From a virus (lineage: Duplodnaviria; Heunggongvirae; Uroviricota; Caudoviricetes), in IMG/VR virus record IMGVR_UViG_2740892230_000016: a stretch of 64,000 nt of DNA; one strand, written 5' to 3'. Below the pieces are notes generated by a model. It ran no database searches and had not been told where the DNA came from. It saw only the letters and a list, made by a program, of their open reading frames with translations. A program made the position numbers and the translations under genes. Shown in pieces: positions 15,401 through 48,784 of the stretch (position 1 is the stretch's first letter; each line of letters begins with the position of its first letter).

Positions 15401-18400
15401 CTACGTGATGACACCGTAGATGAGCATGCACAGGATATGCTTTATGACTTCGTTGCCGCCGGACGCGTAGCCAGCGCAATGGACTCCGACTCCCACCGCA
15501 AAGAGGCCGCGCGTCGCCGGGTATTGTCGGAGTATTCAGATACCGGCACCGAAAAAGCAGAGAAGTATCCGTACTTTGAGGATATGGGCTTCGATAGTGT
15601 GATCGCTGACGAAGGTCACAACTACCGCAATAGCTATAAAAATGGTCGCGAAGCGTCACAACTGGCCTATCTGCCCACCAGCGCGGTGGCGCAATCGGCG
15701 CGAGATATGGCAATTAAAAACGCGTACCTGATGAAAAAGAATGGCGGGCGCGGGCCGGTTCTCCTGACTGCAACGCCAGTCGTTAACACCCCGATCGATG
15801 CATACAACATGCTTTCTCATGTTCTGCCGAAGGAATACTGGCAGAACATGGGGATCTACGGTCCTGATGACTTCGTTAAATTCTTCGGCAAGACCAGGCT
15901 GGAAACGGTACAGAAAATCAGCGGTGAAGTTGAAGAAAAAATGGCGCTGGTGGGCTTTGAAAACCTTGATGCGCTGCGCGGTATATTCCATCGCTGGGTA
16001 ACGCTTAAAACGGCGGAAGACGTTAAGGATACCGTGGAGATCCCGGAGCTGGACGAACACCAGCAGGATGCACCACTTACTGAAGAACAACTGGCGGCGT
16101 ATGAAGAATTGCGTCAGCAGGCGGAAGCGGCGGCCAAAGCCAACAATGGCGTAACGACCTCGGTCAATGAAGACGGCGTGATTGAGCACGAGAAAGCCCG
16201 TCCGATCTTCTCAATAATCAGGGATATGGACCGCGTATGTACTGACATGGACCTGTACTATCGCCGGATCACCTATCGTTTCCTGCCGGAGTACGCCGAT
16301 GCGGTGCAGCAGCTGGCGGACAGTTTGCCTAAACAAGCCACCAGCGAATACGACGACAGTGATGATTCAATCACGCAGCAATCGCAATACTCCCTGATAG
16401 ATAAGGGCGAGTTTATTCAGTTGCAGGTTCCGGAAGCGTTCGAGCAGGAAGTGAATAAGCGCCTGGCCAGGTTTGGCATTGACGAACAGACCGTAACTCA
16501 CCCCGTTACGCCCAAATACGCGAAGCTGATCGCCACGCTGAAGGAGTTTTTCCCGGAAGGTAAGCAAATCATCTTCACCGATGAAAAAACGCAGCACCAG
16601 AAGCTCAAGCGCATTATCTGCAATGCTCTAAACCTTGAACCTTCAAAGGTGGGGATCCTGAATGCTCAGACGGTTGCCGAGGCAGGTAAAACCGGTAAGA
16701 AACTGAAAGCGGTTAAACCGCCGAAAGAGCTACCGGATGAACCAACAGATGCACAGATAGCGAAATACAACGAGCAAATGGCTCTGCATGACGCCTATAT
16801 CGCGCAGCAAAATGAAATGTCGTTGGGCGGTCTGGAAAAGATTGCAGCCGACTTCCAGGAGGGCCGGACTCCGATCATCATCTGCAACAAAAAGGCAGAG
16901 GTGGGTATCAACCTGCATCGAGGAACGACGGATATCCACCACCTGACGTTGCCGTGGACACCAGCCAGTATCGCACAACGTAACGGTCGCGGTGCACGAG
17001 TTGGCTCCAACCGTGCAAGCGTTCGCGTTCACTACTACTGCGGCAAGGGGTCTTTCGATGAATACCGACTGAAGACGCTGAAGCGTAAAGCAGGCTGGAT
17101 CTCCGATATCCTCCGTTCAGATAAGTCAGAAATGGAGAACGCCGACGCCAATGACATGATCGAAATGCAGATGTATACCGCGAAGGATGACGGCGAACGT
17201 CTGGCAATGATGCAGGTTCAAATGGATAAGGCGAAAGCTGCGAAACGCGCTCGCCAGAAAGAACAGGCTACTATCGACCTTCAGAACTACATCAAGGCGC
17301 AGCACGCAGCTGGCGAGGATGTGGAGGTACTTACCGCTGAATTAGAGCGAAGCAAAGCGGAACTTGAAAAGACCACCGCCGAGGTAGCTAAATTCAAACA
17401 GGCGGCAATGGCCAAGGCAGCGGATAACGCAGACTGGAAGGCCCGCTGGGGGAGTGTCCATCACACAGACCGTATGTTGTTAGCACAGTATCGCGCGTCG
17501 TTGAAAAGCGCCATTCAGCGCAAGGCTAATATCTCTCAGGCCATCTCACGCTATGAGAAATTATTGAACCGTACTCAGAAGGCCGCGACGGATATCAAAC
17601 GCCTGCGCCCGCTGGTGGAGGATGCAATAAATAAAGGCATTCTGGATATTGATCCTGACCTGGTTAACCATGCGAGTGAGTTCCTTGTTATCGGCGATCG
17701 CTCATGGCGTGTAGGCCAATACTACGATTGTGCCGGTGATATCGTTCGCATTAAGTCGCTGGACTTCGACAGCCAGCGCGCAGACGTGGAGATCATCTTT
17801 ACCTTCAAAGGCACCAAATCGGGTAACTGGGATGTGAAGACGCTGGATAAACAGGTTGATGTAACTCCCGATGAAGATGCTGTTATGCAGAAAATCAGTG
17901 GTGGCGTCTCCATCGCCGGGATTAACGACATCATTTCCTGTGACGATTTCTACCGTTTCCAGCAGCGCGGCATGATCAAAATCACTGACTCATACGGCGT
18001 TCAGACTACAGAGTCAGGCTATAGCATTGATTTTGTTGGCACCTATACGGACCCACTGAAGCATGCGGTTTACCCGGATCGCCGTGACGGCGCGCTGAAG
18101 TCGTCAATTGCAAAATGGGTGCTTGGTATGATGTCGGAAGGGAATAACCGCCAGATCCGTTCGGCAGAAACATTCCTGGTTGAATTGTTTGGCTTCAATT
18201 ATGGCGATGTAATCGCGTCATACGGAGATACGCTATCCCCTGAAGCAATTCAGGAGAAAATAGCGGATGCGATCACCAGAATGCCGGAAAAAACAAGCCA
18301 GGGGTCTACTCGTAACGGGGATTCTGAACTTGAAGTCACCAATGCCATTTTCGGTACCAATGAGTTCCGGGCGTCAGATTATGAGATCACCACAGCACAG

Positions 18401-19222
18401 TTTGGCACCATTGGCATTTACAGCAATAAAGACGAGATCAAGCAGGCAATGGACGCAGCAAGCGCGCGCATCGCAGCAGAACGGGAAGCCAATCTGAATC
18501 ATGCAGTCGCCGCGCTGACTCAATCGTGGGTAACAGCAATCAGGGAGGCCGCCACCACAGGGAAAATCACACCTGCAATTGCGGATGTCGTAAACGACGG
18601 CTCTAAATTTATGGATGCCTATAAAATGGATTCGGTGCAGTTGCCATCAGCCTATGGCCAACTCAGCTATCGCATGACCTACAACCTGGTATCAATGTTT
18701 TCCGACCTTGCCATCCTTGGGCTGGTGGATCTTAACGAGGTTACGCCGGAATTGCTCAGCATGCGCAAGAATCATGTGGAGATATTGCAGAGAATTAACA
18801 CGGTTCTTGCCGGGCGCACCGATGAAGAGAAACAGGCCGACGCTGATCGGATAAACCTGGCCCTTGGCAACATCACGGAGGAAGAGATTGCCGCCAGAAA
18901 CGAGAAACAAGAAGAGTTATCATCAATACAGGGTGATGCCACCAGCATAGCTCAGTCTCTTGGTCTGAATTATCGCGTATCCACCGCCGACCTGAAGATG
19001 ATGTACGCACCAAAATTCGCCGCTGGCGAGGTATTTGGGCTTCAGGAAGCCTCAGGCATGAAAGGCGTTCTTTTCCGTGCGAAAGACGCAATCAAGGCGA
19101 AATTCGGCGCTCGCTGGCTGCCAGCGAAGGCGAAGAACAGCGATTTCCCGGGTAACTGGTGGATTATCGAGACAAAACACAACGTGGCGGACGTTCTGGC
19201 CGTCATCCAACAATACGCATAA
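12455..19222 (+). CDS. darB: DarB antirestriction protein: N6-adenine methyltransferase fused to SF2 DEAH helicase (2255 aa)
   Basis: 2255-aa product; methyltransferase motif GNVPFGG; helicase Walker A GFGTGLGKTT and DEGH box; AAGGA RBS upstream of ATG. Confidence 0.85.
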   Translation: MNKLSMGVFRCSSVSEILKYIRAITSHRAPIKYGVEKVEGKSYDRLRREANQKAIDLLNSLVDGATLTDEQRQILAGYTGEGGIGGSVSEYYTPKPIAEGVWEIMKLYGADVGNTLEPSAGTGVFNETKPVGTVMTATEISSVSGRINQLLHPEDSVQISPFEQLAVSTPNDSFDHVVGNVPFGGRDNTRNIDKPYAEETDMGSYFMLRMLDKIKPGGFMCVIVPPSIVSGSNMKRLRLRLSRKAEFLGAHRLPTGTFDANGTSTVVDVVLMRKHPAEMAEKIPLVDESTLESANVLWPTFISGKWFEKDGRRFVHGTQEKGFQGRIEVRADGQIDNQALKAKLIHRFESRIDWSLLDMAEPSPTADVVDEGEMRLINGVWQKYAGGRWIEADAGKELKIDAASYGADSWEALQRNLTTTEGRLGMTFTQMANVRDKYTTSISDDMVQLVDWINSQPEKYRERLYRGAMIGRMLIEYQDMKAAGHSAEQIEQQRLSLVSRLQAEIDRFGNPGRGPIAKLSGSGARAWFAFRGAIKLDGTISDELAGKLVTHDSSASYDSTSYQDTLRYLYSDLTRDPIQLDDFRLAFTGELPASDEELLNLLASTPGIAVSPYGGIVPFARATSGDINEIVAPKQEFLATLPDGPVKNNVLNQLAAIEEKRIKTPAENIRFKLNSRWFDRSVILEFLQENGYPDLRYVQSVQLEGDEMVSDTYHGGDGLFVGHRYGVVQRKDKETGEIRYEWDRKSGENATGFPAQLEKYLNGARIGGKDSATANGYREQMALLEDQFNKWIKTHDRYDELVAKYNDVFNSNIPYEHSGDPLGLKGLSGKRQPFDYQNSEVRRLSEDGRGILGFGTGLGKTTTALALEAFNYENGRSTRTAYVVPKSVLENWYYEAKEFLSEEAFSNYLFVGLDVLMDGDQIRQVPVLDENGKPVLGTDGTPVMRDALKLADEATITARMNAIPHSNYRAVVFTKEQYARIPLRDDTVDEHAQDMLYDFVAAGRVASAMDSDSHRKEAARRRVLSEYSDTGTEKAEKYPYFEDMGFDSVIADEGHNYRNSYKNGREASQLAYLPTSAVAQSARDMAIKNAYLMKKNGGRGPVLLTATPVVNTPIDAYNMLSHVLPKEYWQNMGIYGPDDFVKFFGKTRLETVQKISGEVEEKMALVGFENLDALRGIFHRWVTLKTAEDVKDTVEIPELDEHQQDAPLTEEQLAAYEELRQQAEAAAKANNGVTTSVNEDGVIEHEKARPIFSIIRDMDRVCTDMDLYYRRITYRFLPEYADAVQQLADSLPKQATSEYDDSDDSITQQSQYSLIDKGEFIQLQVPEAFEQEVNKRLARFGIDEQTVTHPVTPKYAKLIATLKEFFPEGKQIIFTDEKTQHQKLKRIICNALNLEPSKVGILNAQTVAEAGKTGKKLKAVKPPKELPDEPTDAQIAKYNEQMALHDAYIAQQNEMSLGGLEKIAADFQEGRTPIIICNKKAEVGINLHRGTTDIHHLTLPWTPASIAQRNGRGARVGSNRASVRVHYYCGKGSFDEYRLKTLKRKAGWISDILRSDKSEMENADANDMIEMQMYTAKDDGERLAMMQVQMDKAKAAKRARQKEQATIDLQNYIKAQHAAGEDVEVLTAELERSKAELEKTTAEVAKFKQAAMAKAADNADWKARWGSVHHTDRMLLAQYRASLKSAIQRKANISQAISRYEKLLNRTQKAATDIKRLRPLVEDAINKGILDIDPDLVNHASEFLVIGDRSWRVGQYYDCAGDIVRIKSLDFDSQRADVEIIFTFKGTKSGNWDVKTLDKQVDVTPDEDAVMQKISGGVSIAGINDIISCDDFYRFQQRGMIKITDSYGVQTTESGYSIDFVGTYTDPLKHAVYPDRRDGALKSSIAKWVLGMMSEGNNRQIRSAETFLVELFGFNYGDVIASYGDTLSPEAIQEKIADAITRMPEKTSQGSTRNGDSELEVTNAIFGTNEFRASDYEITTAQFGTIGIYSNKDEIKQAMDAASARIAAEREANLNHAVAALTQSWVTAIREAATTGKITPAIADVVNDGSKFMDAYKMDSVQLPSAYGQLSYRMTYNLVSMFSDLAILGLVDLNEVTPELLSMRKNHVEILQRINTVLAGRTDEEKQADADRINLALGNITEEEIAARNEKQEELSSIQGDATSIAQSLGLNYRVSTADLKMMYAPKFAAGEVFGLQEASGMKGVLFRAKDAIKAKFGARWLPAKAKNSDFPGNWWIIETKHNVADVLAVIQQYA

Positions 19223-19992: not shown

Positions 19993-21300
19993 TTACACTA
20001 TATTTTTCACTATAGAATTGGCGTCATCCAGTACGCCAAGTTCCTCGATGTGTTTTTTTATAATTAATCGATTTGAAGCAATGATTGTAGACCATCGCGT
20101 TTCCCAAGCTCTATAAGCATGCCACGAATAACCTAACCGTCTTTCTTTGCTCATATTGGACATTGAGTATTCGACTGCTTCTAAATATGCCTTTTCATAT
20201 TTAGTGCCAGCAATTTCTATGATACTTCCAAAATATATAAGCCATTTTGCAAGTTGTTCATATTGCTCCCAAGCGCCGCTCTCTCTTGTTAAATTTCTTT
20301 TTTGTTCTATTATCCTCTTAAAAAATTCAACAACTCTGCTGTCACTCCAATCCAAACCTTCAGATATAATTGAAGAAATTATCTGATAAAATGAGTCTTC
20401 TAATCTAATATATTCATTCTTATATGTATGAGAACCTACAATAACTTTTCTAATGTTTTCACGAGCTCTCTCCATTATATCTTCTATGAGCAGTATCTTA
20501 CTGCTCAGTCGATGAAAGAAATCATCTATTTCCGTATTATCAATTACCCTTATTCCAAAACAATAAAAGTAATAGTCCTTCATGTCTTGACTTACTTCGC
20601 CATGAGATATGAAGAATATATTAGAGCACAGTGCATTATCTTTAGAAAATGTCTTATAACTATTTATAATTGCCTTAAGGTTTGTATCACTTAAAGAATA
20701 TCCTAATATCACAACTGTATTTTCATGTAGTATCGTACTAAGTTTTTGTGAAAAATAGGTGTCAGAGTTTATAAACCTGAAGTAGTCTTCTGAAGTAACA
20801 ACCATGTTTTTTGGTGAATCAATAGAACCATGGACATGATATATTTTAACTTTAGATGAGTATTTAGGAATAGGTAAGCCCGGGGTAATAGACTGTACTT
20901 CCTCATCTCCAGTTAAGCATTCAGCTAACTTGTCATAATTTGTTGTAATGACACGGAATGAATTTTTTTGAAAAAAATCTTTTATATTTGATATATCTTC
21001 TCCAAGTTGAATTGGAGATATGATCTCAACAATTTCATCATAAATCGACTTACCCTCAATATTGAGCTTCAAAGATAGTATTTGTGCGGCTTCTTCAAGG
21101 CTCAATGCTGGTGGTTTATCATCAGGGAATAACGTGTCTTCCAACTGTTTGGCGTTGTGAACTTTGCTGCAAACTTTTTTTAATAGTTCTTTCCACGTTG
21201 GAGCTTCGCCGTTCGAGACTGCCTTTGAAAAGCCAGTCCCGGTAAATAGACAAAGCCTGCTTGTAGCGGCAGCGTATGCTAACTCAACATATTCGCTCAT
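19993..21300 (-). CDS. SIR2-like (SIR2_2 family) protein, 435 aa, candidate NAD-depleting antiphage effector
   Basis: Motifs FTGTGFS (aa 19-25), TTNYD with N121, YHVHG with H157, VVILGYSLSD; strongly AT-rich relative to flanks; occupies the slot where P1 carries res/mod. Confidence 0.7.
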   Translation of the reverse strand: MSEYVELAYAAATSRLCLFTGTGFSKAVSNGEAPTWKELLKKVCSKVHNAKQLEDTLFPDDKPPALSLEEAAQILSLKLNIEGKSIYDEIVEIISPIQLGEDISNIKDFFQKNSFRVITTNYDKLAECLTGDEEVQSITPGLPIPKYSSKVKIYHVHGSIDSPKNMVVTSEDYFRFINSDTYFSQKLSTILHENTVVILGYSLSDTNLKAIINSYKTFSKDNALCSNIFFISHGEVSQDMKDYYFYCFGIRVIDNTEIDDFFHRLSSKILLIEDIMERARENIRKVIVGSHTYKNEYIRLEDSFYQIISSIISEGLDWSDSRVVEFFKRIIEQKRNLTRESGAWEQYEQLAKWLIYFGSIIEIAGTKYEKAYLEAVEYSMSNMSKERRLGYSWHAYRAWETRWSTIIASNRLIIKKHIEELGVLDDANSIVKNIV

Positions 21301-21356
21301 TACTTACTCCATTTACTTATAGTTCTATGGAGAAGTATACCCTAATGCATTGACGT

Positions 21357-21998
21357 TTATAGATAATTTCCTTTTCCTGTTAATTCCCCTTTCGGCACCC
21401 GTTTTTGTGCCAGCGTTTGGGTTCCGCGAATTATGTTAATCAGAGGGCTTAGTAACGATGGTTCTTGGCGTGCCTCAACTTCTCCAGCCATTGCCCTGAT
21501 GTAGTCTGCGCTGGCAACGTTGTTGTATTCCGTCGCAAAGCAACATAGTAACGTCAGAACATGCTCTGTCGTTATTTCGCTCCAGTTGATGTTGAAAAAT
21601 TCATCGCCTTTTTTATCGTGTTCGGAATCAAAGATGCTTTGGTGGAGGATGTATTTGCCGGATTCTTTGCGCGGTAACTTGATCGCTTTCTGGCGTTCCA
21701 GCTCCTTGTAAATCTGCATTGCTTCAATTAGTACCGGCCTGCTGTTCATGAAGGGATCGCGCAACCTTACACGCTGGCCAACTCTACCGGTAATAAAGCT
21801 GTTTTCCTCTTCCACCAGCACGATAAAACCTTTTTCCTCTTTCTCACGCAATTCGCGCAGCAACTGGAGTTCCATATCGCGGCGGCGTTCAGGGTAGCTG
21901 GTCCGCTCAGCCATTATCAGCTCGTTGTTGATCCATGCAGCAGTCATTGACGCCGGTTTGCCGACGCTCATCGAAACAACGCATATTTTCTTATCCAT
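21357..21998 (-). CDS. mat: Mat-like protein
   Basis: ORF between ref and the res/mod slot as in P1; first ATG (MDKKICV) at 21998, ORF track start at 22025 is GTG. Confidence 0.45.
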   Translation of the reverse strand: MDKKICVVSMSVGKPASMTAAWINNELIMAERTSYPERRRDMELQLLRELREKEEKGFIVLVEEENSFITGRVGQRVRLRDPFMNSRPVLIEAMQIYKELERQKAIKLPRKESGKYILHQSIFDSEHDKKGDEFFNINWSEITTEHVLTLLCCFATEYNNVASADYIRAMAGEVEARQEPSLLSPLINIIRGTQTLAQKRVPKGELTGKGNYL

Positions 21999-22186
21999 AG
22001 CGCCCCTACAAAAAAGAAAAGCCACCAGCGGCGGCTTAGCAATACAACTGAAGGTAGCGCCCGGTACTCAGACTGTGCCGTCCATGGAATATTTGAAAAG
22101 GGATCCATCCGTACCGGGCATGTGATGATTCTGACTGAAGTCACTTGTCAGTTGTCAATTATTTCAGATTAAAAATAATATATTTA

Positions 22187-33360: not shown

Positions 33361-34134
33361 TCAGATATCGGCCTTATTCGGAATTTTATCAGCCACCAGC
33401 TGCAATAAAGCCTTCGCCATTTCATGAACCAACATGGCATCAATGACGCCTAGCGTATGGCCCGGCTTAATCTTTAATGCGGCCTCAAGATAGCCTCTTT
33501 CCAGAGTGGTTTTTACGCTTTTCTTGGGCGATTGTTGGGAACTATCCGGAAAATCCGGATGGTTGCCAGCCACATAAGCTACCCGCAACCAGTGCATGAA
33601 TGTTTCCGCAGACACACAACCGCAGTCCACATCGATTTTCCCGCGTTGCTGTTCCAGCCATTGCTCAAAATCTAACTTGTAAGCCTTACTTTCAGGTTCA
33701 TCACCATTGAACTCGACTTTCTGCGACGCTATGAGAGCAGCTTCGTATTGTTCGCGAGTGACAACTGACTGGTATTCATCGCTATCAAGGTCACCGATTG
33801 GAAGCTCAATCTCACAACAAAAATTGCGCCCAAAGAAAGTGTCTTTTTTGTGGTCCGAGCCAAAAGCAAAAGTCGCGCATGGCGCCATTAAATTGGCACT
33901 GAGCAGGCGACAATCGATCATACCATCAGGCCACCCGCCGCACTTGGGCAGCTCCTTCACTAACAAGTCGATAAGCTTCATTTTTTTATCATCTTTGCAA
34001 GCCGCCAAAGCCATTTGGGCAAGTGCCAATACTTCATCTGCCGTATATCCAGCACCGTGACCATACATTTCGATACGGGCGATAATCTCTGATATGCGTT
34101 CTTTAGTGATTCTTGTCATTTCTTTTTGCGCCAT
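33361..34134 (-). CDS. hypothetical protein (257 aa)
   Basis: ORF only; no recognisable motif. Confidence 0.4.
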   Translation of the reverse strand: MAQKEMTRITKERISEIIARIEMYGHGAGYTADEVLALAQMALAACKDDKKMKLIDLLVKELPKCGGWPDGMIDCRLLSANLMAPCATFAFGSDHKKDTFFGRNFCCEIELPIGDLDSDEYQSVVTREQYEAALIASQKVEFNGDEPESKAYKLDFEQWLEQQRGKIDVDCGCVSAETFMHWLRVAYVAGNHPDFPDSSQQSPKKSVKTTLERGYLEAALKIKPGHTLGVIDAMLVHEMAKALLQLVADKIPNKADI

Positions 34135-34490
34135 TTCTTTTCACATTCCTTAGTCCATTTTTCAATGTTCATTTTGGCAATATCAGTCATTCCATCACCT
34201 AAGAAATACTTTTTCCGGTATGCCTTGCACTTAAACCACACTACAACAGCCACCAGCCAGAAAATAAAAGGCCATACAGCAATACCAACGACAGCCGCGA
34301 TAAAGCCCAATAGCCATAAATGAAGCTCTCCAACTTCTGTTTCCGGCAATATTCTTAAAGAATTAAACAGCAGGCTGAACGAATGGTCGTATGCATTGGC
34401 AGTATAAGACATGCAATCCATATAATTAAAGTCATAGCCTGCGGCTGCCGCCCATAATGGGCGGTCAAGAAAATGTTTTAGTGTCATCAT
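34116..34490 (-). CDS. hypothetical membrane protein (124 aa)
   Basis: Hydrophobic stretch WLLGFIAAVVGIAVWPFIFWLVAVVVW; AT-rich codon usage. Confidence 0.4.
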   Translation of the reverse strand: MMTLKHFLDRPLWAAAAGYDFNYMDCMSYTANAYDHSFSLLFNSLRILPETEVGELHLWLLGFIAAVVGIAVWPFIFWLVAVVVWFKCKAYRKKYFLGDGMTDIAKMNIEKWTKECEKKWRKKK

Positions 34491-34496
34491 ATAAAT

Positions 34497-34877
34497 TTAA
34501 GGTTCAGACCAGTTATCTTCAATAGCAATGCTTAATCTTTGTAGCCATTCTGCTAATTTCAGCATTGCTTCTCTTTCGCTTAAACCACGAGGAAAATCAT
34601 CAAGTGAAATTGTTGGCTTGAATCCCCCGTAATTATCCATTTCAACTGTCAGATTTTGTTCCAGCACGGTATTTCTTACGCGACTATTGTGCCGGAGCAA
34701 ATATACTGAGCGTGATTTATTGGTTTTGTGGTCTAGCTTATATTCGGTAAGTATCATCTGGCTTTTGCCATGACTATTACCTCTCCACATACTTACCTCA
34801 CTTAATAAAACAACTCCATACGTAGTTGATGATTTTTTCCCACGTAATATAAATATGCACTCCAGCAGAAAAACCAA
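34497..34877 (-). CDS. hypothetical protein (up to 126 aa; likely shorter)
   Basis: ORF in AT-rich segment; N-terminus of ORF-track model looks non-coding, internal ATG plausible. Confidence 0.3.
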   Translation of the reverse strand: MVFLLECIFILRGKKSSTTYGVVLLSEVSMWRGNSHGKSQMILTEYKLDHKTNKSRSVYLLRHNSRVRNTVLEQNLTVEMDNYGGFKPTISLDDFPRGLSEREAMLKLAEWLQRLSIAIEDNWSEP

Positions 34878-34968
34878 AACCTACAATTACTGAAAAAATC
34901 AAAACATTTACTTTTGACATTATAAAATTTCTCTCGTTGCCGTAGGTGATAGCACCATAATTGCTAAT

Positions 34969-35220
34969 TTAGTGAGTTAGCAGTTCCATTTTTTGGATGA
35001 TTTCCGCATGAGCATCATCGTTGTCAACACTTAACTCGTTTAATGCCTCTCGCACTACATCAACTTCTTCTGGTTGGAAGAAGTCATCTCGGTAGTCACC
35101 AAATAGAACCGAAACAAGCCTGCCACCAGCAACATCAAGATTGGCGCTAACAGGTGGCTCTTTACCATCCTCAAATTCGACTACAAAAGTTAATTTCCCC
35201 ATCGTTACCACCAGCGACAA
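34969..35220 (-). CDS. hypothetical protein (83 aa)
   Basis: ORF only. Confidence 0.3.
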   Translation of the reverse strand: MSLVVTMGKLTFVVEFEDGKEPPVSANLDVAGGRLVSVLFGDYRDDFFQPEEVDVVREALNELSVDNDDAHAEIIQKMELLTH

Positions 35221-35284
35221 ATTGAATACAAACCCAGTGCTGCCGCCATCACAATTCCTACCGTTGCGAATGCTTCAGGCCAGC

Positions 35285-36475
35285 TCATTGACCTGCCTCC
35301 TGGGGAGGTTCTGGTAGCAGCATCCAGAACAAGGCGTTCCCTAACCACGATAAAGTGCCGTCGCTCAACTCCACGTATTCCCCTTGCACCTGTCCTGCCA
35401 TATACTCACCGTGCTTTGAATAAATTAAAATCCAATCATCTTGAGCGGGCATTCGCTCACTACAGCTTATCCAACCATCCGGAGTTACCGGAGAATTGCC
35501 ATTTACCAAGTCAGCTCGAACATATAGCGTGTCATCATGGTGCTGATTGTGGCTGCACCACGTTAATTCGCTTAACTCGCCATCTTCTGGCCATACTCCA
35601 GCTGTTTGCAGCCAGATATGGGCTGGCGCATCCTGGCAAGGTGTATTAACTGGAAACTTGTAAGTTTGGCTTACAGGTTGGCTACCCTGAAGCATGGCAG
35701 CGTGGCAGGCATACTCAACGCCCTTAACTGCATCTGCGCAGTAGTTATAGCGATTGCATTCCACTAATTTCCGTTTGAGTTTTTCAATTGCCTGCGCGAC
35801 ATCAGCCTGTATTACAGGAACTGGCGGAACGGCTGTTTGCTCTCGAACGTCATTAGTCGCTATCGGTTCTGCTGCCAACTGACTGGCATATTTGTTAATG
35901 GTAACGATAAGCTCTTGCTCAGCCTCATCCAGACAATCACCGATACCTCGCCTGTCACCGTCAAAATCATCGAAATCGGCACGAATCTTGGCAACCTTCA
36001 GGATTGCGGACAACACCTCACTAGGAATTACCGGATAGTTGGTTGACGTTTCCGCGATTTCCCGAAAATTATTGGTTGACGAATTCTTGTTTTCCCGAAA
36101 GTTTCCGGACTGAAGCATGGCGGCGCGGCAGGCGTTCCAGCCATCTGCGTAACAATCTCTGTGTGTCTTGAAATATGTCACCGCCCTTGGTACATCGTTT
36201 ACGTCTATTTCATCCGGCACAACCGGCGCAGGTGAGTCAGCATAAACAGGAATAACGTCCGGTTGCTCTTTATTGCTTTCATCCGTTAAAGCCCAGAATA
36301 ATTTCCCGGCCGGATGTTTGAAAATATAAGCAACTGGTTCTGCTTCCAGTGATGCCAGCGCAATTTTGTATACTTCCAGATCCATTTGTGCAGTTACTAA
36401 ATCAGGATAACGATCCATAACCGTTATATTGCGCTTAATTATCTCTATTAATTGTTCTTTAGTAAAAGTGGTCAT
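35285..36475 (-). CDS. DUF551-like prophage early-region protein (396 aa)
   Basis: C-terminal W-rich segment ending WMLLPEPP resembles DUF551 proteins of lambdoid prophages (from memory). Confidence 0.45.
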   Translation of the reverse strand: MTTFTKEQLIEIIKRNITVMDRYPDLVTAQMDLEVYKIALASLEAEPVAYIFKHPAGKLFWALTDESNKEQPDVIPVYADSPAPVVPDEIDVNDVPRAVTYFKTHRDCYADGWNACRAAMLQSGNFRENKNSSTNNFREIAETSTNYPVIPSEVLSAILKVAKIRADFDDFDGDRRGIGDCLDEAEQELIVTINKYASQLAAEPIATNDVREQTAVPPVPVIQADVAQAIEKLKRKLVECNRYNYCADAVKGVEYACHAAMLQGSQPVSQTYKFPVNTPCQDAPAHIWLQTAGVWPEDGELSELTWCSHNQHHDDTLYVRADLVNGNSPVTPDGWISCSERMPAQDDWILIYSKHGEYMAGQVQGEYVELSDGTLSWLGNALFWMLLPEPPQEAGQ

Positions 36476-36485
36476 TCGTTATGCC

Positions 36486-36907: not shown

Positions 36908-37639
36908 TCACTCTCCTTTGATGCGAATGCCAGCGGCGCGGGGCACATTAACTTCCACGATGCGCACAGTTGGTTTGTACATCTCAATCGCAGTCAGCCA
37001 GTCAGCGCCAGTCATGCGCTTTTCTGCATCGCCATTAGTCCACTTAACCGGTACACCAATAGCCTTCATCGCGATTTCTATTTCCCCGGCAATGGCGCTT
37101 TTTCCGCAACCAGTAAAACCAGAAACAACGACAAGAACTTCACCTTTGGCTGGTTTTATTTCCCGTGCTTCCAGTTCTGCTATGCGCTTACTTCCATCCG
37201 AGATAACACCTTCGTAATACTCACGCTGCTCGTTGAGTTTTGATTTTGCTTCCTCAAGCTCAACTCTCAGCTTCCCTACCGTTAGCGCAATATCCTCGTT
37301 CTCCTGGTCACGGCGTTTGATGTATTGCTGGTTTCTTTCCAGCTCATCCAGCAGCGCCAAGACGGTAGCCGGATTGGCTGCGGCGATGAATTCAGCATTG
37401 GCCTGCTGTTCCATTTGGAAATCTTCATCGAAACCGCTTTCAGGATGCGCTCCTTCAATTCTGCAAATGGGAATATATCCAGCAGCCTCGCGATGAATTA
37501 GTGCATCATCACCATCAAATCGGCTCTCTCCATATTCGAGAGACCACTCACCACACGTTGCTTTTTCTGCCTTTTCACGCAGTACCTGATAGTCAATCTT
37601 GCTCACTGGTTTCCTCCTTTGCGAATCTGTTCCGCCCAT
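36908..37639 (-). CDS. Ea22-like protein with C-terminal mini P-loop (243 aa)
   Basis: N-terminus IDYQVLREKAEK shared with the next gene; Walker A-like GFTGCGKS near C-terminus. Confidence 0.4.
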   Translation of the reverse strand: MGGTDSQRRKPVSKIDYQVLREKAEKATCGEWSLEYGESRFDGDDALIHREAAGYIPICRIEGAHPESGFDEDFQMEQQANAEFIAAANPATVLALLDELERNQQYIKRRDQENEDIALTVGKLRVELEEAKSKLNEQREYYEGVISDGSKRIAELEAREIKPAKGEVLVVVSGFTGCGKSAIAGEIEIAMKAIGVPVKWTNGDAEKRMTGADWLTAIEMYKPTVRIVEVNVPRAAGIRIKGE

Positions 37640-38310
37640 TCTTCAAGGGATTTCTCCGCATATTCACCAGACAGGCCATCAATCGGATGCGCTTCATTAG
37701 CCAACTCTTCTTTCGCTGACAAAATCATGCGTGTAACGTCGAAAACTTCACGCAAAGACTTATTGATAAATCCGTGATTGAAAGCAGCAGCAAGACGGCT
37801 TGCGGTATAGTNNNNNNNNNNACCCTCGTTGCGAGCCGCCGCACGAATTTCAGCCAGGAAAGCGTCGGTGGCTGGGGTTTCCGTGAAGTTGTCCTCCCAA
37901 CCGTAGTACTCCTGACGACAGAAGTTATTAAATTCCTTCTCCGACTGTTTAAGCTCCGCATTCTCTGCCGCCAGCACCGAAAACTTCTCGTGTGCCAACT
38001 TAACAGCCGCATCAGCCTGCTTAATTGACTCAATCGCTTTCTGTTGGTCTTCGGCCAGCTTCGCTAAATTAGCCTCCAGTTCGGCTATGCGTTCGTTTAA
38101 TGCATCTCGTTCATCCAGTAGTGACAGCACGGTTTCTGGCCCGGCCATAATTTTAAAGGCGTGAATCGCATCAATATCAATACCAAGCTCCTTGAGCTTC
38201 TTTTCGCTTAATAAATCATCATCACCTGGTAATATTGACAGATGTGTCATCGCTGTAATTGCGCGTTCCGACACGTCACGCAATACCTGATAGTCAATTT
38301 CGGTTGTCAT
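37603..38310 (-). CDS. Ea22-like coiled-coil protein (235 aa, contains N10 gap)
   Basis: Paralogous N-terminus IDYQVLRDVSERA; heptad-like helical middle; N run at 37812-37821 inside ORF. Confidence 0.4.
   Translation of the reverse strand: MTTEIDYQVLRDVSERAITAMTHLSILPGDDDLLSEKKLKELGIDIDAIHAFKIMAGPETVLSLLDERDALNERIAELEANLAKLAEDQQKAIESIKQADAAVKLAHEKFSVLAAENAELKQSEKEFNNFCRQEYYGWEDNFTETPATDAFLAEIRAAARNEGXXXXYTASRLAAAFNHGFINKSLREVFDVTRMILSAKEELANEAHPIDGLSGEYAEKSLEEWAEQIRKGGNQ
37812..37821. other. N10 scaffold gap
   Basis: Run of ten N inside an Ea22-like ORF. Confidence 0.95.
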
Positions 38311-45556: not shown

Positions 45557-46510
45557 TCATTCAGTAGAGTAGGGGCCAAGAAATCGCACTCCGTTGAAGT
45601 GAATAAGATGAGAAGGTGCATCAGCCACCCATACCTCTGTTTCCCATGCGATTTCACCAAGATATCGCCCCATGATGGAGCGATTTGGAAAAGCGGTCAC
45701 ATAGACAAGTCCGGCTGTTGATCCGGCAAACAGCCTGGCAAGCTCAGCATGCCGCTTCCCATCAACCGGTCCATGACTGGTGACAGACTCAACCAGTAGC
45801 AGCCAGTTTTTCGCAGTAAAATGTAGCACCACATCTGGCATTTTACCGTGTGAATCCACATCAACACCTAGCCCGGCCAGCAGTGGAGCGTCGAAGTAGC
45901 CCCACTTTTCGCCAGTGTCGCCAGCATAGACCAGCACGCTACCCGGAGCAAAACGTGGGGCGAAGTCCTCTATTATGGCACGGATAAGTTCGCTGTGCTC
46001 GCCGGGACTGAGGGTTATTTGCTGGCCCGCAGCAATTTCAACAGGGATACGATTCTGTTCGCGCTCCTTAGCATAGCGGGTAACCAGCGTTTCACGCTCG
46101 GCTAAATAGGTTGCAAGGCTATCGTGCCATGCCGGGCTGCCGAAAGTGCGTAGCATGGACAGAGCAGCAGGTTCGATCTGATAAACAGCCTTCGGGCTGT
46201 TCACTGGGCGATCGGGCTTGTCCGGATTGTAGAGGGCTACTCCAGCAGCGCAGAACTGATGCATAGACTGGCGGCGGAATGTCTCACGAGTATTGGGTGC
46301 GTAGACCTTGCCGTAGTGCTCCCGAACCCAATTCATGATTGGTGTAATGCCCACAAGCGGATTTTCCGCGTCGGCCCATGCTTTTCCCGGTGTGAGGTTC
46401 AGGAGTGCCAGCAAACACAAAGCAGAACGCTCATTCTGCTGCGCTCTGGGCAGGCCTAAGGATGCTATAATTTGCTGAGCGGCCTCAATATAATCATTTT
46501 GGTTGTTCAT
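45557..46510 (-). CDS. putative type II restriction endonuclease (317 aa), possibly BsuBI/PstI-like
   Basis: Start overlaps stop of adjacent N6-adenine methyltransferase (ATGA); size as for PstI/BsuBI endonucleases; family assignment from memory, not verified. Confidence 0.5.
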   Translation of the reverse strand: MNNQNDYIEAAQQIIASLGLPRAQQNERSALCLLALLNLTPGKAWADAENPLVGITPIMNWVREHYGKVYAPNTRETFRRQSMHQFCAAGVALYNPDKPDRPVNSPKAVYQIEPAALSMLRTFGSPAWHDSLATYLAERETLVTRYAKEREQNRIPVEIAAGQQITLSPGEHSELIRAIIEDFAPRFAPGSVLVYAGDTGEKWGYFDAPLLAGLGVDVDSHGKMPDVVLHFTAKNWLLLVESVTSHGPVDGKRHAELARLFAGSTAGLVYVTAFPNRSIMGRYLGEIAWETEVWVADAPSHLIHFNGVRFLGPYSTE

Positions 46511-47976
46511 GCAGTCAGAGCTCCTAGCTTAGCGTCAATATGTTCTTGCGTGAGAGTTTCTTGTTGCATAGCCCACTTGCCAAGCTCTATCAGAGTGTCA
46601 CGGCTTGGGTACTTAATCATCTTGAGGTCGGTTGCATTGACCTGTGTATGCCCGTTGAAGCGACGGAAATACTTATCCACTGCGGTAGTGTTCAGGAACA
46701 CGGCCAAGCCACGGGCCAGCGCCTCGGGTAACCCATGTTTGTTCTCATGAAACACGTTCATGTGATTTTCAAATCCCAACACTGAATACTCACTGAAGGT
46801 AGCAGGATCAACGACGCTTGCTACCACTCGGCGCTTTTCCTCCTTCGACGAGAAACGACGCACCACACAATAAAAACCGTTCGGGTAAAGCCACTTTTCT
46901 GTCTCGTCGTTGCGCATGATTGCGTTGGGTTTCTTCAAACCTTCCACAGGCCAGACAGTGCTACTCATACTCAAATGGCTCGGGTAGATCAGGGGAACAG
47001 TTCCTTCTTCTGGCATGCTGCGCAAATGAGCTTTCAGTCGGAAATCAACTATCGGTCCGGTCGATACCTTCACGCCAATATCAGCCAGCGAACATTGTAC
47101 GGCAGATGATAACTCAATGGTGCTTTTCTCGAGCGTGGTCGGCACATGAATAAACCGCTCCGAATCGTCCGGGTACACAATCTGGTCAAATGGGTGTTCG
47201 TAGGTGACTAGGTCAAAAAAGCTATCATCGGTCGAAGTTGTGACTGTAACAGCCTCCTGACGGCCTCCACGCTCCAGGCGGATGATAATATTTTCCTGCA
47301 ACACATCGTCATCCCTGAAAGCTTTGCTACGTGATTCGAACAAATGAATATGGCGGATTGCTGCCCGCTCAAGTATGAAATTACGGAACGGACGGTAATA
47401 CGGTCCGTTGCAGAAACTACGTGGGATTATGGCCACTATCTGCCCGCCAGGTGCAACCTCACCTACAGCCAGTGCAACAAAGGCGGAATACAGATTTACC
47501 GTCTCGATACCGACAGTGCGAAGAGCCTGCCGGTGGGCTGACTGGCTATTGATCTTCTTGTAAGGCGGATTAAGTATTGCATGGGTATAACCTCGATCCT
47601 GTAGACCTTCGGCGGTTGCCAGCTCAATATAATCCCCTTCGATGATGCGGGGCGTCACTCTCCTGTACCCGGTTAAGTGCTTCGCAAGGTGACCACACAG
47701 CTTTTTGTCGATTTCGTAGGCTGTTGCCTCGACAGACTCAAAGCCAAACTCGCCAACCAGCCAACGGTCGAGGAAGGCGCAAGACAGTGCGCCTAAACCA
47801 GCGCCTGCGTCCAGTAGACGGCAAGTTTTCATTGTGCTCGGTGGAAACAAGGAGGCCATAAAACGGGCCACGCCAGAAGGCGTCATGAACTGGCCGAACT
47901 CTGCTTTGTGTTTACGCGCGGTACGGGGAGACAGCTCGCGACGCACGCTGTCTGCGACGTCTAGCTTTTGAAGCAT
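46507..47976 (-). CDS. N6-adenine DNA methyltransferase (gamma-class), 489 aa
   Basis: SAM-binding motif LLDAGAGLGAL followed by catalytic NPPY; located directly downstream of cI in the rexAB position. Confidence 0.8.
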   Translation of the reverse strand: MLQKLDVADSVRRELSPRTARKHKAEFGQFMTPSGVARFMASLFPPSTMKTCRLLDAGAGLGALSCAFLDRWLVGEFGFESVEATAYEIDKKLCGHLAKHLTGYRRVTPRIIEGDYIELATAEGLQDRGYTHAILNPPYKKINSQSAHRQALRTVGIETVNLYSAFVALAVGEVAPGGQIVAIIPRSFCNGPYYRPFRNFILERAAIRHIHLFESRSKAFRDDDVLQENIIIRLERGGRQEAVTVTTSTDDSFFDLVTYEHPFDQIVYPDDSERFIHVPTTLEKSTIELSSAVQCSLADIGVKVSTGPIVDFRLKAHLRSMPEEGTVPLIYPSHLSMSSTVWPVEGLKKPNAIMRNDETEKWLYPNGFYCVVRRFSSKEEKRRVVASVVDPATFSEYSVLGFENHMNVFHENKHGLPEALARGLAVFLNTTAVDKYFRRFNGHTQVNATDLKMIKYPSRDTLIELGKWAMQQETLTQEHIDAKLGALTA

Positions 47977-48070: not shown

Positions 48071-48784
48071 TCAATCAAAAGTCTCATCATTCCACTGCGA
48101 TTTGATGACCTTTCCGACAAACTGGCAGTTTTCGTTACACTCAATCATGTCGAATCGTGGGTTGAGCGGCTCCAGGTACGCTTTACCGCTCTCACGAATG
48201 AATCGTTTGAAGGTAAATTCATCGCCGTTCATTCGGGCCACGCAAAAATCGCCATCCTCGATTTCCCGTTCAGGGTCAACGAGTATCAGCATACCTTCAG
48301 GGAAGCTGGGTTTACCACCCTGCGGTGCGGTCATTGAATGCCCCTTGACCTCCAGCCAGAACGACCTGTCACTGGCTTTTGTGGTGGTGGAGATCCATTT
48401 AATCGCATCTTTTGCGGTGTACGAAATATCATCCATTGAGAATGCGCCAGCTTGTACGCAGGAGAGTAACGGATATTCGTAAGCGGGGACACGAGTTAAT
48501 GGCTCTTCAATTGCGAGCGCCATTTCTGCAATAGATTTTGCCAGGCTGGGACTGAAATCTCCGACCTTTACATTCAGTATCTTAGCAAGCTGTGCTGCGT
48601 GGCTGGCATTTATGGCGTTGATGCCAGCCATTAGCTGATTAACAGCGCTTTGGGTAACACCTAATTCATAGGCTAATGATTCCTGCGACAGGCCTAACTC
48701 TTTCTTTTTAGCGTTAAAAATACTTTTCAGACGCTTGGCGTCTTCCAGTTGCTCAGGGGTTAACGGTTTCTTTTTCATGTTCAT
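48071..48784 (-). CDS. cI: lambda-like CI repressor (237 aa)
   Basis: Collinear similarity to lambda CI over full length ([17 protein letters not shown]..., [40 protein letters not shown]); 237 aa as lambda CI. Confidence 0.9.

What the first reader, a model, noticed from the sequence alone, without database searches (positions are those of the whole stretch)
34116..34925. AT-rich small-gene cassette in the lambdoid early-left region
A compositionally distinct block encodes a 124-aa membrane protein, a soluble protein of up to 126 aa and possibly a 40-aa hydrophobic peptide (ATG at about 34920, below the ORF-track size cutoff). Such small membrane/soluble pairs in moron positions are often superinfection-exclusion, abortive-infection or toxin-antitoxin modules.
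Basis: inference. Interest (0 to 1): 0.4.

Follow-up and report, generated by a model that had tools for sequence, protein, structure and literature searches.

The report
Small accessory genes, P1-like phage-plasmid
The AT-rich block is real and holds three genuine small genes (two membrane proteins and one soluble protein). They are separately shuffled accessory genes of unknown function in a repressor-controlled early operon of a P1-like phage-plasmid, not a recognisable toxin-antitoxin or defence pair.

Summary
Window 34116-34925 is AT-rich (GC 0.378 against 0.486, lowest 1.4% of 810-bp windows). It carries three minus-strand genes under purifying selection:
- a 40-aa transmembrane peptide (34798-34920);
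- a soluble protein (34497-34790) that is 97 aa, not 126;
- a 124-aa membrane protein (34116-34490).

The context needs correcting. The 34 kb to the left is a P1-like phage-plasmid (darB, c1, pacAB, lpa, phd-doc, humD, hot). The cassette lies in P1 "variable region 8". In E. coli complete genomes, 313 of 317 copies are on plasmids.

In relatives, the operon starts at the C1 operator Op88/PpmgT. Here the lambdoid early-left genes begin only beyond a 10-N gap inside a shared Ea22-like gene.

The three genes do not form a module:
- Each occurs without the others in N15, P22-like, lambdoid and Uetakevirus early regions.
- P1-like plasmids carry all three, 124+97, or 97 alone.
- A frameshifted 97-aa gene coexists with an intact 124-aa gene in many assemblies.

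Pfam, NCBIfam, PADLOC, Rfam, PDB and fold searches gave no informative match. Function remains unknown. My best guess is independent early-lytic accessory factors, with the membrane proteins acting at the inner membrane. Interest is low.

The parts
34798..34920 (-). 40-aa single-transmembrane peptide gene (MSKVNVLIFSVIVGFGFSAGVHIYITWEKIINYVWSCFIK), GC 0.293
   Evidence: ORF. It matches phrog_5525 over its whole length, E 2e-22. Homologues about 50% identical, also 40 aa, are annotated beside Ea22/Eaa genes in phages EC.W1-9 and phiv142-3. pN/pS is 0.43. RefSeq annotation of the plasmids examined omits it.
34497..34790 (-). 97-aa soluble protein gene. The true start is the ATG at 34790 with a GAGG Shine-Dalgarno, not the TTG at 34877.
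   Evidence: Sequence. It matches phrog_1258 over residues 1-97 of 97, E 2e-49. There are 130 homologue clusters, most of those listed 97 aa long. pN/pS is 0.19. The model has pLDDT 81 and shows four antiparallel strands followed by a C-terminal helix.
34116..34490 (-). 124-aa inner-membrane protein gene. It has a conserved N-terminal domain (TxKHFxDxPxxAxxAGY...DC), a hydrophobic run of about 31 residues with a central proline, and a basic C-tail.
   Evidence: ORF. It matches phrog_2638, E 5e-63. The family has only 36 clusters among 1.84 billion representatives; alignment A4 is. The charge pattern (N-tail -4, C-flank +5) fits C-in. pN/pS is 0.28.
34969..35202 (-). 77-aa strongly acidic protein gene directly upstream, within the same AT-rich block (GC 0.427).
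   Evidence: It matches phrog_3876, E 8e-53. It is present with the cassette in L001, L014, L015 and L017. pN/pS is 0.09.
35205..35288 (-). Candidate 27-aa transmembrane peptide ORF (MSWPEAFATVGIVMAAALGLYSICRWW). Its start overlaps the stop of the 396-aa gene (ATGA), and a GGAGG lies upstream.
   Evidence: Read from the sequence. It is conserved in L001, L014, L015 and L017 with pN/pS 0.17. It is not annotated in any record seen.
35285..36475 (-). 396-aa DUF551 protein, the upstream gene of the same operon and itself a mosaic
   Evidence: Pfam DUF551, E 5e-9. It shows patchwork identity to different P1-like plasmids.
33361..34134 (-). 257-aa downstream gene (252 aa if it starts at the ATG at 34119, which overlaps the 124-aa stop as ATGA). 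It has an Ea22-type N-terminal module and a PmgU-like C-terminus.
   Evidence: Sequence. The C-terminus is 35% identical to P1 PmgU. Repeat D1 links its 5' end to that of the 396-aa gene.
33321..33350 (-). Terminator-like hairpin (11-pair stem) that ends the gene string just after the 257-aa gene
   Evidence: the inverted repeat I6 is the same structure.

Best explanation
The block is not one system. It is a run of separately exchangeable small accessory genes, of the kind that fill lambdoid 'ea' and 'nin' regions. They sit in the variable slot between pap and hot of a P1-like phage-plasmid.

The genes are packed head to tail, with 6-7 nt spacers or ATGA overlaps. They lie in one leftward gene string that runs from Ea22/DUF551 genes, through the 27-aa, 77-aa, 40-aa, 97-aa and 124-aa genes, to a PmgU-like gene and a terminator-like hairpin.

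In complete relatives this string begins at the C1-repressed promoter PpmgT with operator Op88. If the junction in this window is real, it would instead be fed from the lambdoid early-left promoter. Either way the genes are expected to be silent or low in the lysogen and switched on when the repressor is lifted.

Inferred mechanism:
- The 124-aa protein inserts in the inner membrane with its basic C-tail in the cytoplasm. Its conserved acidic N-domain probably faces the periplasm.
- The 40-aa peptide is a single-span membrane peptide.
- The 97-aa protein is a stand-alone soluble beta-sheet-plus-helix protein.
- Each acts alone as a dispensable early-lytic helper.

My best guess for the two membrane proteins is an action at the cell envelope during lytic growth. 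That could be exclusion of secondary infection, as with T4 Imm, or modulation of host envelope or division functions. For the 97-aa protein my best guess is binding of a host or competitor protein or nucleic acid.

Shown: the anatomy, coding status, independence of the three genes, slot, and operator in relatives. Inferred: expression timing, topology and function.
For: Replicon and slot:
- P1 genes occupy 1 to about 33 kb, with best DNA matches to SJ46, vB_EcoM-813R1 and RCS47.
- 309 PLSDB plasmids hold the region.
- 308 of 5426 E. coli complete genomes hold it, with 313 of 317 places on plasmids.
- PMC9603915 names pmgT-humD as highly variable region 8.

Operon:
- All genes are co-oriented. 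No notable sigma-70 match lies on the minus strand within or beside the cassette. There is one terminator-like hairpin at 33350-33321.
- Junctions were read.
- A C1 operator, ATTGCTCTAATAAATAT, lies just after pap in L017, L001 and L002. It corresponds to the OpmgT/Op88 and PpmgT features annotated in P1.
- The downstream gene is PmgU-like.

Independence of the three genes:
- 124-aa homologues occur in N15-like and lambdoid nin-type loci with no 97-aa or 40-aa homologue within 2.5-4 kb.
- 97-aa homologues occur in N15 (gp44), P22-like phages and the Klebsiella, Citrobacter, Erwinia and Symbiopectobacterium prophage loci examined, with no 124-aa homologue and no constant neighbour.
- 40-aa homologues lie beside Ea22/Eaa genes in Uetakevirus-type phages.
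- Within P1-like plasmids, about 71% of sampled rows hold all three, about 11% hold 124+97 and about 18% hold 97 alone.
- Where the 124-aa gene is absent, other small membrane or secreted proteins fill the slot.
- In L016 an extra gene sits between the 124-aa and 97-aa genes.

All contexts seen are repressor-controlled early regions.

Dispensability:
- Frameshifted alleles of either gene persist.
- The P1 genes that occupy this slot (pap to humD) scored non-essential wherever tested; upfM was not tested (PMC10695390).

The genes are nevertheless real: pN/pS is 0.19-0.43.
Against: - No experiment or annotated homologue gives any function. The timing of expression is inferred from relatives, because the promoter-proximal part of the operon lies beyond the 10-N gap in this window.
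- The promoter scan is a crude consensus match. An AT-rich block could hide a weak constitutive promoter.
- All three genes do travel together in about 70% of P1-like plasmids, and both the 124-aa and 97-aa families occur (6 kb apart) in one lineage of Proteus phages. A loose functional link is therefore not excluded.
- The 124-aa model is of low confidence (pLDDT 66). Its hydrophobic run of about 31 residues with a central proline could be a hairpin rather than a single span.
Confidence: 0.6

Rival explanations
1. Superinfection exclusion or abortive infection expressed from the prophage or plasmid. One or both membrane proteins, possibly helped by the 97-aa protein, would protect the lysogen against other phages.
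For: - Two small inner-membrane proteins sit in AT-rich, variably present cargo.
- In plasmids without the 124-aa gene, the same slot holds other small envelope proteins. That is the kind of turnover seen in phage-phage conflict genes.
- The likely periplasm-facing conserved N-domain would suit a block on DNA entry.
- The element carries other defence cargo, a SIR2-like gene at 19993-21300.
Against: - No PADLOC, Pfam, NCBIfam or function-annotated PHROG match.
- No promoter of its own was found. In relatives the operon starts at a C1-repressed promoter.
- Every homologue context is an early lytic operon rather than a lysogen-expressed position.
- Frameshifted copies are common.
Confidence: 0.2
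2. Toxin-antitoxin or addiction module. Either the 97-aa protein is an antitoxin for a 124-aa membrane toxin (type II gene order), or the 40-aa peptide is a type I toxin controlled by an antisense RNA.
For: - The gene order is soluble protein then membrane protein, 6 nt apart.
- There is a sub-threshold Pfam match of the 124-aa protein to the membrane toxin CptA (E 0.093, 13.3 bits against a cut-off of 27.3).
- The 40-aa peptide has the size and hydrophobicity of type I toxins.
Against: - The partners do not co-occur outside P1-like plasmids, and they separate within them.
- A 1-nt deletion truncates the 97-aa protein to 69 aa, removing its most conserved C-terminal helix. This allele sits next to an intact 124-aa gene in the assemblies examined, in several allelic backgrounds; the truncated alleles are on at least 18 contigs.
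- If the operon is C1-repressed, it cannot act as an addiction module.
- No Rfam hit and no convincing antisense promoter or terminator.
- The CptA match is confined to the hydrophobic segment.
- The element already has phd-doc 3 kb away.
Confidence: 0.04
3. Counter-defence or host-takeover genes. The 97-aa protein (and the neighbouring acidic 77-aa protein) would inhibit a host defence or DNA-metabolism protein early in lytic growth. The membrane proteins would adjust envelope, division or lysis timing.
For: - All homologue contexts are early operons. They often lie beside recombination or nuclease genes such as RusA, HNH, exonuclease and NinB.
- The 97-aa family is widespread among the enterobacterial temperate phages and prophages examined and is under strong purifying selection.
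- The 77-aa neighbour has a net charge of about -12, typical of DNA mimics.
- The 97-aa model has four strands followed by a helix, the same order as a PUR/Whirly repeat.
Against: - No constant neighbour hints at a target.
- This overlaps with, rather than contradicts, the best explanation.
Confidence: 0.16

Closest known systems
P1 pmgT-pmgU-pmgV / upfM-N-O slot ('variable region 8', between pap and hot), under C1 operator Op88 (OpmgT)
   Same: - Same position between pap and hot.
- Same orientation.
- The same operator and promoter sequence in complete relatives.
- The downstream gene keeps a PmgU-like C-terminus.
- In P1 the genes of this slot scored non-essential wherever tested (PMC10695390).
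- The literature describes the slot as highly variable and low in GC (PMC9603915).
   Different: None of the three genes has a counterpart in reference P1. Here the slot is filled with lambdoid-type Ea22/DUF551 genes plus these small genes.
Lambdoid 'ea' (early-left) and 'nin' accessory gene arrays, and the equivalent early accessory cluster of N15
   Same: - Homologues of all three genes lie in such arrays: N15 gp44, a P22-like nin region between ninF and rusA, and next to Ea22/Eaa.
- They show gene-by-gene mosaicism, tight packing, overlapping stops and starts, and unknown function.
   Different: Here the array is carried by a P1-type phage-plasmid. In relatives it is controlled by C1 rather than by CI and N antitermination.
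Small phage membrane proteins that exclude superinfection (T4 Imm, HK97 gp15, P22 SieA, P1 Sim)
   Same: Small inner-membrane or periplasm-facing proteins encoded by dispensable phage genes. T4 Imm is likewise an early lytic gene (from my own knowledge).
   Different: No sequence or profile similarity was detected. No functional data exist. The membership features could not be tested.
Type II toxin-antitoxin pairs such as phd-doc, present 3 kb away at 30978-31585
   Same: Two adjacent small genes, with the soluble one first.
   Different: - The partners are not co-inherited.
- No toxin or antitoxin domains were found.
- There is no promoter of its own.
- A truncated 'antitoxin' coexists with an intact 'toxin'.

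Membership tests
Moron (Hendrix-type: extra gene with its own promoter and terminator, atypical composition, expressed from the prophage) | Atypical base composition, and presence or absence between otherwise similar genomes | tested here: met
   GC is 0.378 against 0.486. The genes are present, partly present or absent among P1-like plasmids and absent from reference P1.
Moron (Hendrix-type) | Own promoter and own terminator flanking the insert | tested here: not met
   The consensus scan found no notable minus-strand promoter from 33.0 to 35.9 kb. The only terminator-like site is at 33350-33321, after the next gene. Junctions are 6-7 nt spacers or ATGA overlaps. The scan is crude, so a weak promoter cannot be excluded.
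Moron (Hendrix-type) | Expression in the lysogen | not testable with these tools
   Needs transcript data. The relatives' operon begins at a C1 operator, which argues against it.
Type II toxin-antitoxin system | The two partners are co-inherited as a unit | tested here: not met
   The 124-aa and 97-aa families occur apart in all non-P1 loci examined and separate within P1-like plasmids.
Type II toxin-antitoxin system | Loss of the antitoxin is not tolerated while the toxin is intact | tested here: not met
   The frameshifted 69-aa form of the 97-aa gene sits next to an intact 124-aa gene in L025, L028 and L029; related contigs carry the same truncated alleles.
Type II toxin-antitoxin system | Similarity to a known toxin or antitoxin family | tested here: not met
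   No hits in Pfam, NCBIfam or PADLOC. The CptA match (PF07254) scores 13.3 bits against a cut-off of 27.3.
Type I toxin-antitoxin (hok/sok-like), for the 40-aa peptide | Antisense or overlapping regulatory RNA with its own promoter and terminator | tested here: not met
   No Rfam match at E<=1. The only plus-strand promoter-like site (34765-34793) is a 9-of-12 match, no better than shuffled sequence gives, and no terminator follows it.
Known superinfection-exclusion, abortive-infection or other defence protein families | Profile match to a described family | tested here: not met
   PADLOC gave 0 families for all eight proteins tested. The PHROG matches are all 'unknown function'. Pfam gave none.
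Known superinfection-exclusion, abortive-infection or other defence protein families | Protection of the host against phage challenge | not testable with these tools
   Needs expression and plating assays.
Cargo of P1 variable region 8 (pap-hot slot, C1/Op88-controlled operon) | Location between pap and hot in a P1-type backbone, co-oriented with pmgT-U-V | tested here: met
   hot, humD, phd-doc, pdcB, lpa, pacAB and c1 lie to the left. The synteny in L001, L002, L014 and L017 is the same. The downstream gene is PmgU-like.
Cargo of P1 variable region 8 (pap-hot slot, C1/Op88-controlled operon) | Op88-type C1 operator at the head of the operon | tested here: inconclusive
   It is present in L017, L001 and L002. 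In this window the head of the operon lies beyond the 10-N gap and is replaced by lambdoid sequence.
Lambdoid early-left ('ea') region genes | Homologues located in lambdoid or P22-like early regions | tested here: met
   The 97-aa family occurs in an early-left array ending at xis-int (L019/L020) and in nin regions. The 40-aa family lies beside Ea22/Eaa genes. The 124-aa family follows O/P or ninB.

The most novel reading that the evidence does not exclude
At least one of the three is the founding member of an uncharacterised functional class. One candidate is the rare 124-aa family (36 clusters among 1.84 billion representatives). With its conserved, probably periplasmic N-domain, it could be a new early-expressed inner-membrane protein that blocks entry of competing phage DNA. 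The other candidate is the widespread 97-aa four-strand-plus-helix protein, which could be a new inhibitor of a host defence or DNA-repair factor used by many enterobacterial temperate phages.
Probability: 0.15. Interest if true: 0.5.

Novelty: new member of a known kind. Interest (0 to 1): 0.2.

Why it matters
As it stands this mainly clears up the finding. The block is ordinary mosaic cargo of a common P1-like phage-plasmid, held by about 6% of complete E. coli genomes, and not a recognisable defence or toxin-antitoxin module.

It still has some value:
- It pins three uncharacterised but selected protein families to repressor-controlled early operons across P1-like, N15-like, P22-like and lambdoid phages.
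- It corrects one gene start and points to two small genes that genome annotation usually misses.
- It shows that this slot turns over small envelope proteins, which makes it a reasonable place to look for phage-phage competition genes.

Tried and rejected
Database and fold searches that found nothing informative:
- Pfam, NCBIfam and PADLOC on all cassette and flanking proteins gave nothing above threshold. Pfam on 28 members of the 124-aa family gave nothing.
- PHROG matches are all of unknown function.
- PDB sequence-profile searches gave nothing meaningful for either family.
- AlphaFold2 models: the 97-aa model is usable (pLDDT 81), the 124-aa model is poor (pLDDT 66).
- Foldseek against BFVD gave only unnamed relatives. 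The AFDB50 library was unavailable.
- Rfam gave nothing.
- Literature searches by peptide motifs and by PHROG ids returned nothing. The P1 genome paper (PMC523184) is not held.

Ideas considered and dropped:
- That an approximately 80-aa winged-helix-like protein next to the 124-aa homologues in N15-like phages is a dedicated partner. It is simply N15 gp47, a backbone gene also present where the 124-aa gene is absent.
- That the 124-aa protein is CptA/YgfX-like. The match is sub-threshold and confined to the hydrophobic segment.
- That the 126-aa TTG ORF is the real gene. Homologue lengths and the Shine-Dalgarno sequence point to 97 aa.
- That the whole window is simply lambdoid. The left 34 kb is P1-like.
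- That the 10-N runs are arbitrary concatenation points. Homology and reading frame continue across the first one.
Full report
**1. The observation**

- 34116-34490, 124 aa;
- 34497-34877, a 126-aa ORF with a TTG start;
- 34798-34920, 40 aa, with its ATG at 34920.

The block is compositionally distinct. Its GC is 0.378 against 0.486 for the whole window. Only 1.4% of 810-bp windows are as low, and the only other such region is at 19.6-20.8 kb.

The soluble protein is really 97 aa. An ATG at 34790 has a GAGG 7 nt upstream. The PHROG profile is 97 positions long and is matched end to end. Most homologue clusters listed are 97 aa long.

The 124-aa protein has an uncharged hydrophobic run of 31 residues (56-86). 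The 40-aa peptide has one transmembrane segment.

All three are real genes:
- They match whole-length PHROG families phrog_2638, phrog_1258 and phrog_5525.
- They have protein-level homologues at 35-70% identity in unrelated phages.
- Pooled pN/pS among P1-like copies is 0.28, 0.19 and 0.43.

The AT-rich block continues rightward to about 35200. It includes a fourth gene, a 77-aa acidic protein at 34969-35202.

**2. Where it sits**

The window is not simply lambdoid. Coordinates 1 to about 33.3 kb carry P1 genes:
- darB, 12455-19222;
- c1, 25542-26393;
- pacB and pacA;
- lpa and pdcB;
- doc and phd, 30978-31585;
- humD, 31652-32041;
- hot, 32795-33046;
- a small lipoprotein gene.

The best DNA matches are the P1-like phage-plasmids SJ46, vB_EcoM-813R1 and RCS47.

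The cassette itself is 95-100% identical to 309 PLSDB plasmids, mostly non-mobilizable records of about 90-100 kb. It is found in 308 of 5426 complete E. coli genomes, and 313 of the 317 places are on plasmids.

The slot, between pap and hot, is the "highly variable region 8" (pmgT ... humD) described for P1-like phage-plasmids. That paper also notes the link between variable regions and low GC (PMC9603915). In P1 the genes of this slot scored non-essential wherever tested; upfM was not tested (PMC10695390). None of the three genes has a counterpart in reference P1. The next gene downstream keeps a PmgU-like C-terminus.

**3. The lambdoid part and the N-runs**

Eighteen runs of exactly ten Ns lie between 37812 and 62988. 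None lies to the left.

The first run sits inside an Ead/Ea22-like gene (37603-38310). Both the reading frame and the homology to vB_EcoM-813R1 continue across it in one alignment.

P1-like similarity ends at about 37.98 kb. From 38307 the sequence is 98.95% identical to the early-left region of a Stx-type phage.

The Ea22/DUF551 genes are shared between P1-like plasmids and lambdoid phages. The junction is therefore either a scaffold join through a shared repeat or a genuine cointegrate. Real cointegrates exist. The complete chromosome of E. coli APEC17 carries a P1-like element with this same cassette, fused through Ea22-like genes to a lambdoid prophage next to guaA. Integrated P1-like elements beside prophages are also reported in PMC10879196.

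**4. Operon anatomy and likely regulation**

All genes from the Ea22-like genes down to the 257-aa gene are co-oriented and tightly packed. In order:
- The stop of the 396-aa DUF551 gene overlaps (ATGA) an unannotated 27-aa hydrophobic ORF, which has a GGAGG upstream.
- The 77-aa gene follows.
- A 48-nt spacer separates it from the 40-aa gene.
- A 7-nt spacer with a Shine-Dalgarno sequence precedes the 97-aa gene.
- A 6-nt spacer precedes the 124-aa gene.
- The 124-aa stop overlaps (ATGA) an in-frame ATG of the PmgU-like gene.

The consensus scan found no notable minus-strand promoter in or next to the cassette. It found one terminator-like hairpin, at 33350-33321, right after the PmgU-like gene.

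In complete relatives (L017, L001, L002) the string begins just after pap at a C1 operator, ATTGCTCTAATAAATAT, with one mismatch to consensus. The P1 record annotates that element as OpmgT/Op88, overlapping promoters P1/P2pmgT.

I infer that expression is repressor-controlled, low in the lysogen and on after induction or infection. If the junction in this window is real, the feeding promoter would be the lambdoid early-left one. The timing conclusion would be the same.

**5. Is it a module?**

No.

*124-aa family outside P1-like elements.* Homologues lie in N15-like early clusters (after an exonuclease, before Dam), after lambda-type O/P genes, and after ninB. None has a 97-aa or 40-aa homologue within 2.5-4 kb.

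*97-aa family outside P1-like elements.* Homologues include:
- N15 gp44 (and a hit in phiKO2);
- a gene between ninF and an HNH/rusA pair in P22-like phages;
- a gene in a Citrobacter early-left array ending at xis-int;
- genes in Klebsiella, Erwinia and Symbiopectobacterium nin regions.

They have no constant neighbour and no 124-aa homologue.

*40-aa family outside P1-like elements.* Homologues are annotated 40-aa genes immediately after Ea22/Eaa genes in Uetakevirus-type phages.

*Within P1-like plasmids.* A rank-spread sample gives about 71% with all three, about 11% with 124+97 and about 18% with 97 alone. Where the 124-aa gene is missing, the slot holds other small envelope proteins, a 58-aa membrane peptide and a 69-aa secreted protein. 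One plasmid has an extra small gene between the 124-aa and 97-aa genes.

*The approximately 80-aa protein* next to some 124-aa homologues is just N15 gp47, a backbone gene.

**6. A natural test of the toxin-antitoxin idea**

A 1-nt deletion in a G5 run truncates the 97-aa protein to 69 aa. This removes the invariant C-terminal helix (FPxGLSEREAMLKLAxWL). The truncated alleles are on at least 18 contigs from different samples and in several allelic backgrounds. In the loci I examined (L025, L028, L029) the downstream 124-aa gene is intact. Conversely, frameshifted 124-aa genes occur with an intact 97-aa gene.

An essential antitoxin could not be lost in this way if the pair were expressed. If the pair is not expressed in the plasmid state, it cannot serve addiction.

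The other evidence points the same way:
- the families do not co-occur;
- there are no toxin or antitoxin domain hits;
- the CptA match is sub-threshold (13.3 bits against 27.3);
- there is no antisense RNA signal.

I put the toxin-antitoxin reading at about 4%.

**7. What the proteins look like**

*97-aa.* The model has pLDDT 81. It shows four antiparallel strands followed by a long C-terminal helix.
- BFVD gives one unnamed relative.
- A PDB profile search finds nothing.

*124-aa.* The family is rare: 36 clusters among 1.84 billion representatives, all 58-131 aa apart from two much longer, weakly matching proteins. It has:
- a conserved N-terminal motif, TxKHFxDxPxxAxxAGY...DC;
- an uncharged run of about 29 residues with a central proline;
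- a net-negative N-tail and a positive C-flank.

By the positive-inside rule the C-tail is cytoplasmic. If the protein spans the membrane once, the conserved N-domain is periplasmic. The structure model is poor (pLDDT 66).

There are no Pfam, NCBIfam or PADLOC matches for any of the three proteins.

**8. Most likely explanation**

The block is a string of separately mobile, dispensable, early-expressed accessory genes of the lambdoid ea/nin type, lodged in the variable pap-hot slot of a P1-like phage-plasmid. I give this 0.6.

Function is inferred only. The two membrane proteins probably act at the inner membrane during lytic growth. That could be exclusion of secondary infection, as with T4 Imm, or an effect on envelope, division or lysis timing. 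The 97-aa protein is probably a stand-alone binder of a host or competitor factor.

The rivals are:
- lysogen-expressed exclusion or abortive infection, 0.2;
- counter-defence or host takeover, 0.16, which overlaps with the best explanation;
- toxin-antitoxin, 0.04.

**9. Novelty and interest**

The sequences are already in hundreds of records as "hypothetical protein" and in PHROGs. The kind of feature, mosaic accessory cargo in a known variable slot, is well known. Nothing here is surprising to a phage genomicist, so interest is 0.2.

The residual interest is that three selected families with no known function or fold relative are now tied to early operons across several temperate phage groups, and that this slot turns over small envelope proteins.

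Noticed in passing
window 37603-38310 (N-run at 37812-37821) and 38307 onward: A P1-like segment is joined to a Stx/lambdoid early-left region inside an Ead/Ea22-like gene, at the first of 18 ten-N runs. Reading frame and homology continue across the Ns. This is either a scaffold join through a shared repeat or a real P1::lambdoid cointegrate. The complete E. coli APEC17 chromosome (L033) has a comparable fusion carrying the same cassette.
   Followed up: partly
window 35205-35288 (-): An unannotated 27-aa hydrophobic ORF (MSWPEAFATVGIVMAAALGLYSICRWW). Its ATG overlaps the stop of the 396-aa DUF551 gene (ATGA) and a GGAGG lies upstream. It is conserved in four P1-like plasmids with pN/pS 0.17.
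   Followed up: partly
window 34969-35202 (-): A 77-aa protein (phrog_3876) with a net charge of about -12 and the strongest purifying selection in the block (pN/pS 0.09). Its composition is reminiscent of DNA-mimic anti-restriction proteins. No structure or family match was obtained.
   Followed up: partly
window 19993-22025 (-): The most AT-rich part of the window (GC about 0.31). It encodes a 435-aa SIR2_2-domain protein (PADLOC PDC-S25, ThsA-like and LmuA-like matches) and a 222-aa protein with no match. They lie next to ref and cre, that is, in the P1 res-mod variable slot. It is probably a defence cargo.
   Followed up: partly
window 45557-47976 (-): A type II restriction endonuclease and methyltransferase pair next to the CI-like repressor (48071-48784) in the lambdoid part, as in phage Lys12581Vzw.
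   Followed up: partly
window 34628 region (nt 163 of the 97-aa gene); loci L025, L028, L029, L030: The same 1-nt deletion in a G5 run truncates the 97-aa protein to 69 aa. It is seen in at least 18 contigs from different samples and allelic backgrounds. It could be recurrent slippage or spread by recombination.
   Followed up: partly
window 33361-34134 and 35285-36475 (repeat 34082-34120 / 36438-36476): The 257-aa and 396-aa genes share a paralogous N-terminal module (MT.ITKE..IEII.R), also seen at the start of Ea22-type genes elsewhere (L018). Such repeated 5' ends may be the recombination points that shuffle genes in this slot.
   Followed up: no
L012 3036-3501 and 3807-4247; L013 3255-3464: In P1-like plasmids that lack the 124-aa gene, the slot holds other small envelope proteins: a 58-aa membrane peptide, a 69-aa secreted protein and a 146-aa secreted protein. 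This suggests turnover of envelope-acting cargo at this position.
   Followed up: partly
L017 11146-11341 (and P1 L011 4840-4985): The leader between the C1 operator Op88 and the first long gene of the operon encodes a small hydrophobic peptide (MNTAFKIIMAAIYFWLFSITFGGIVAHG). It is conserved between P1 and the SJ46-type plasmid and is not annotated in either record.
   Followed up: no
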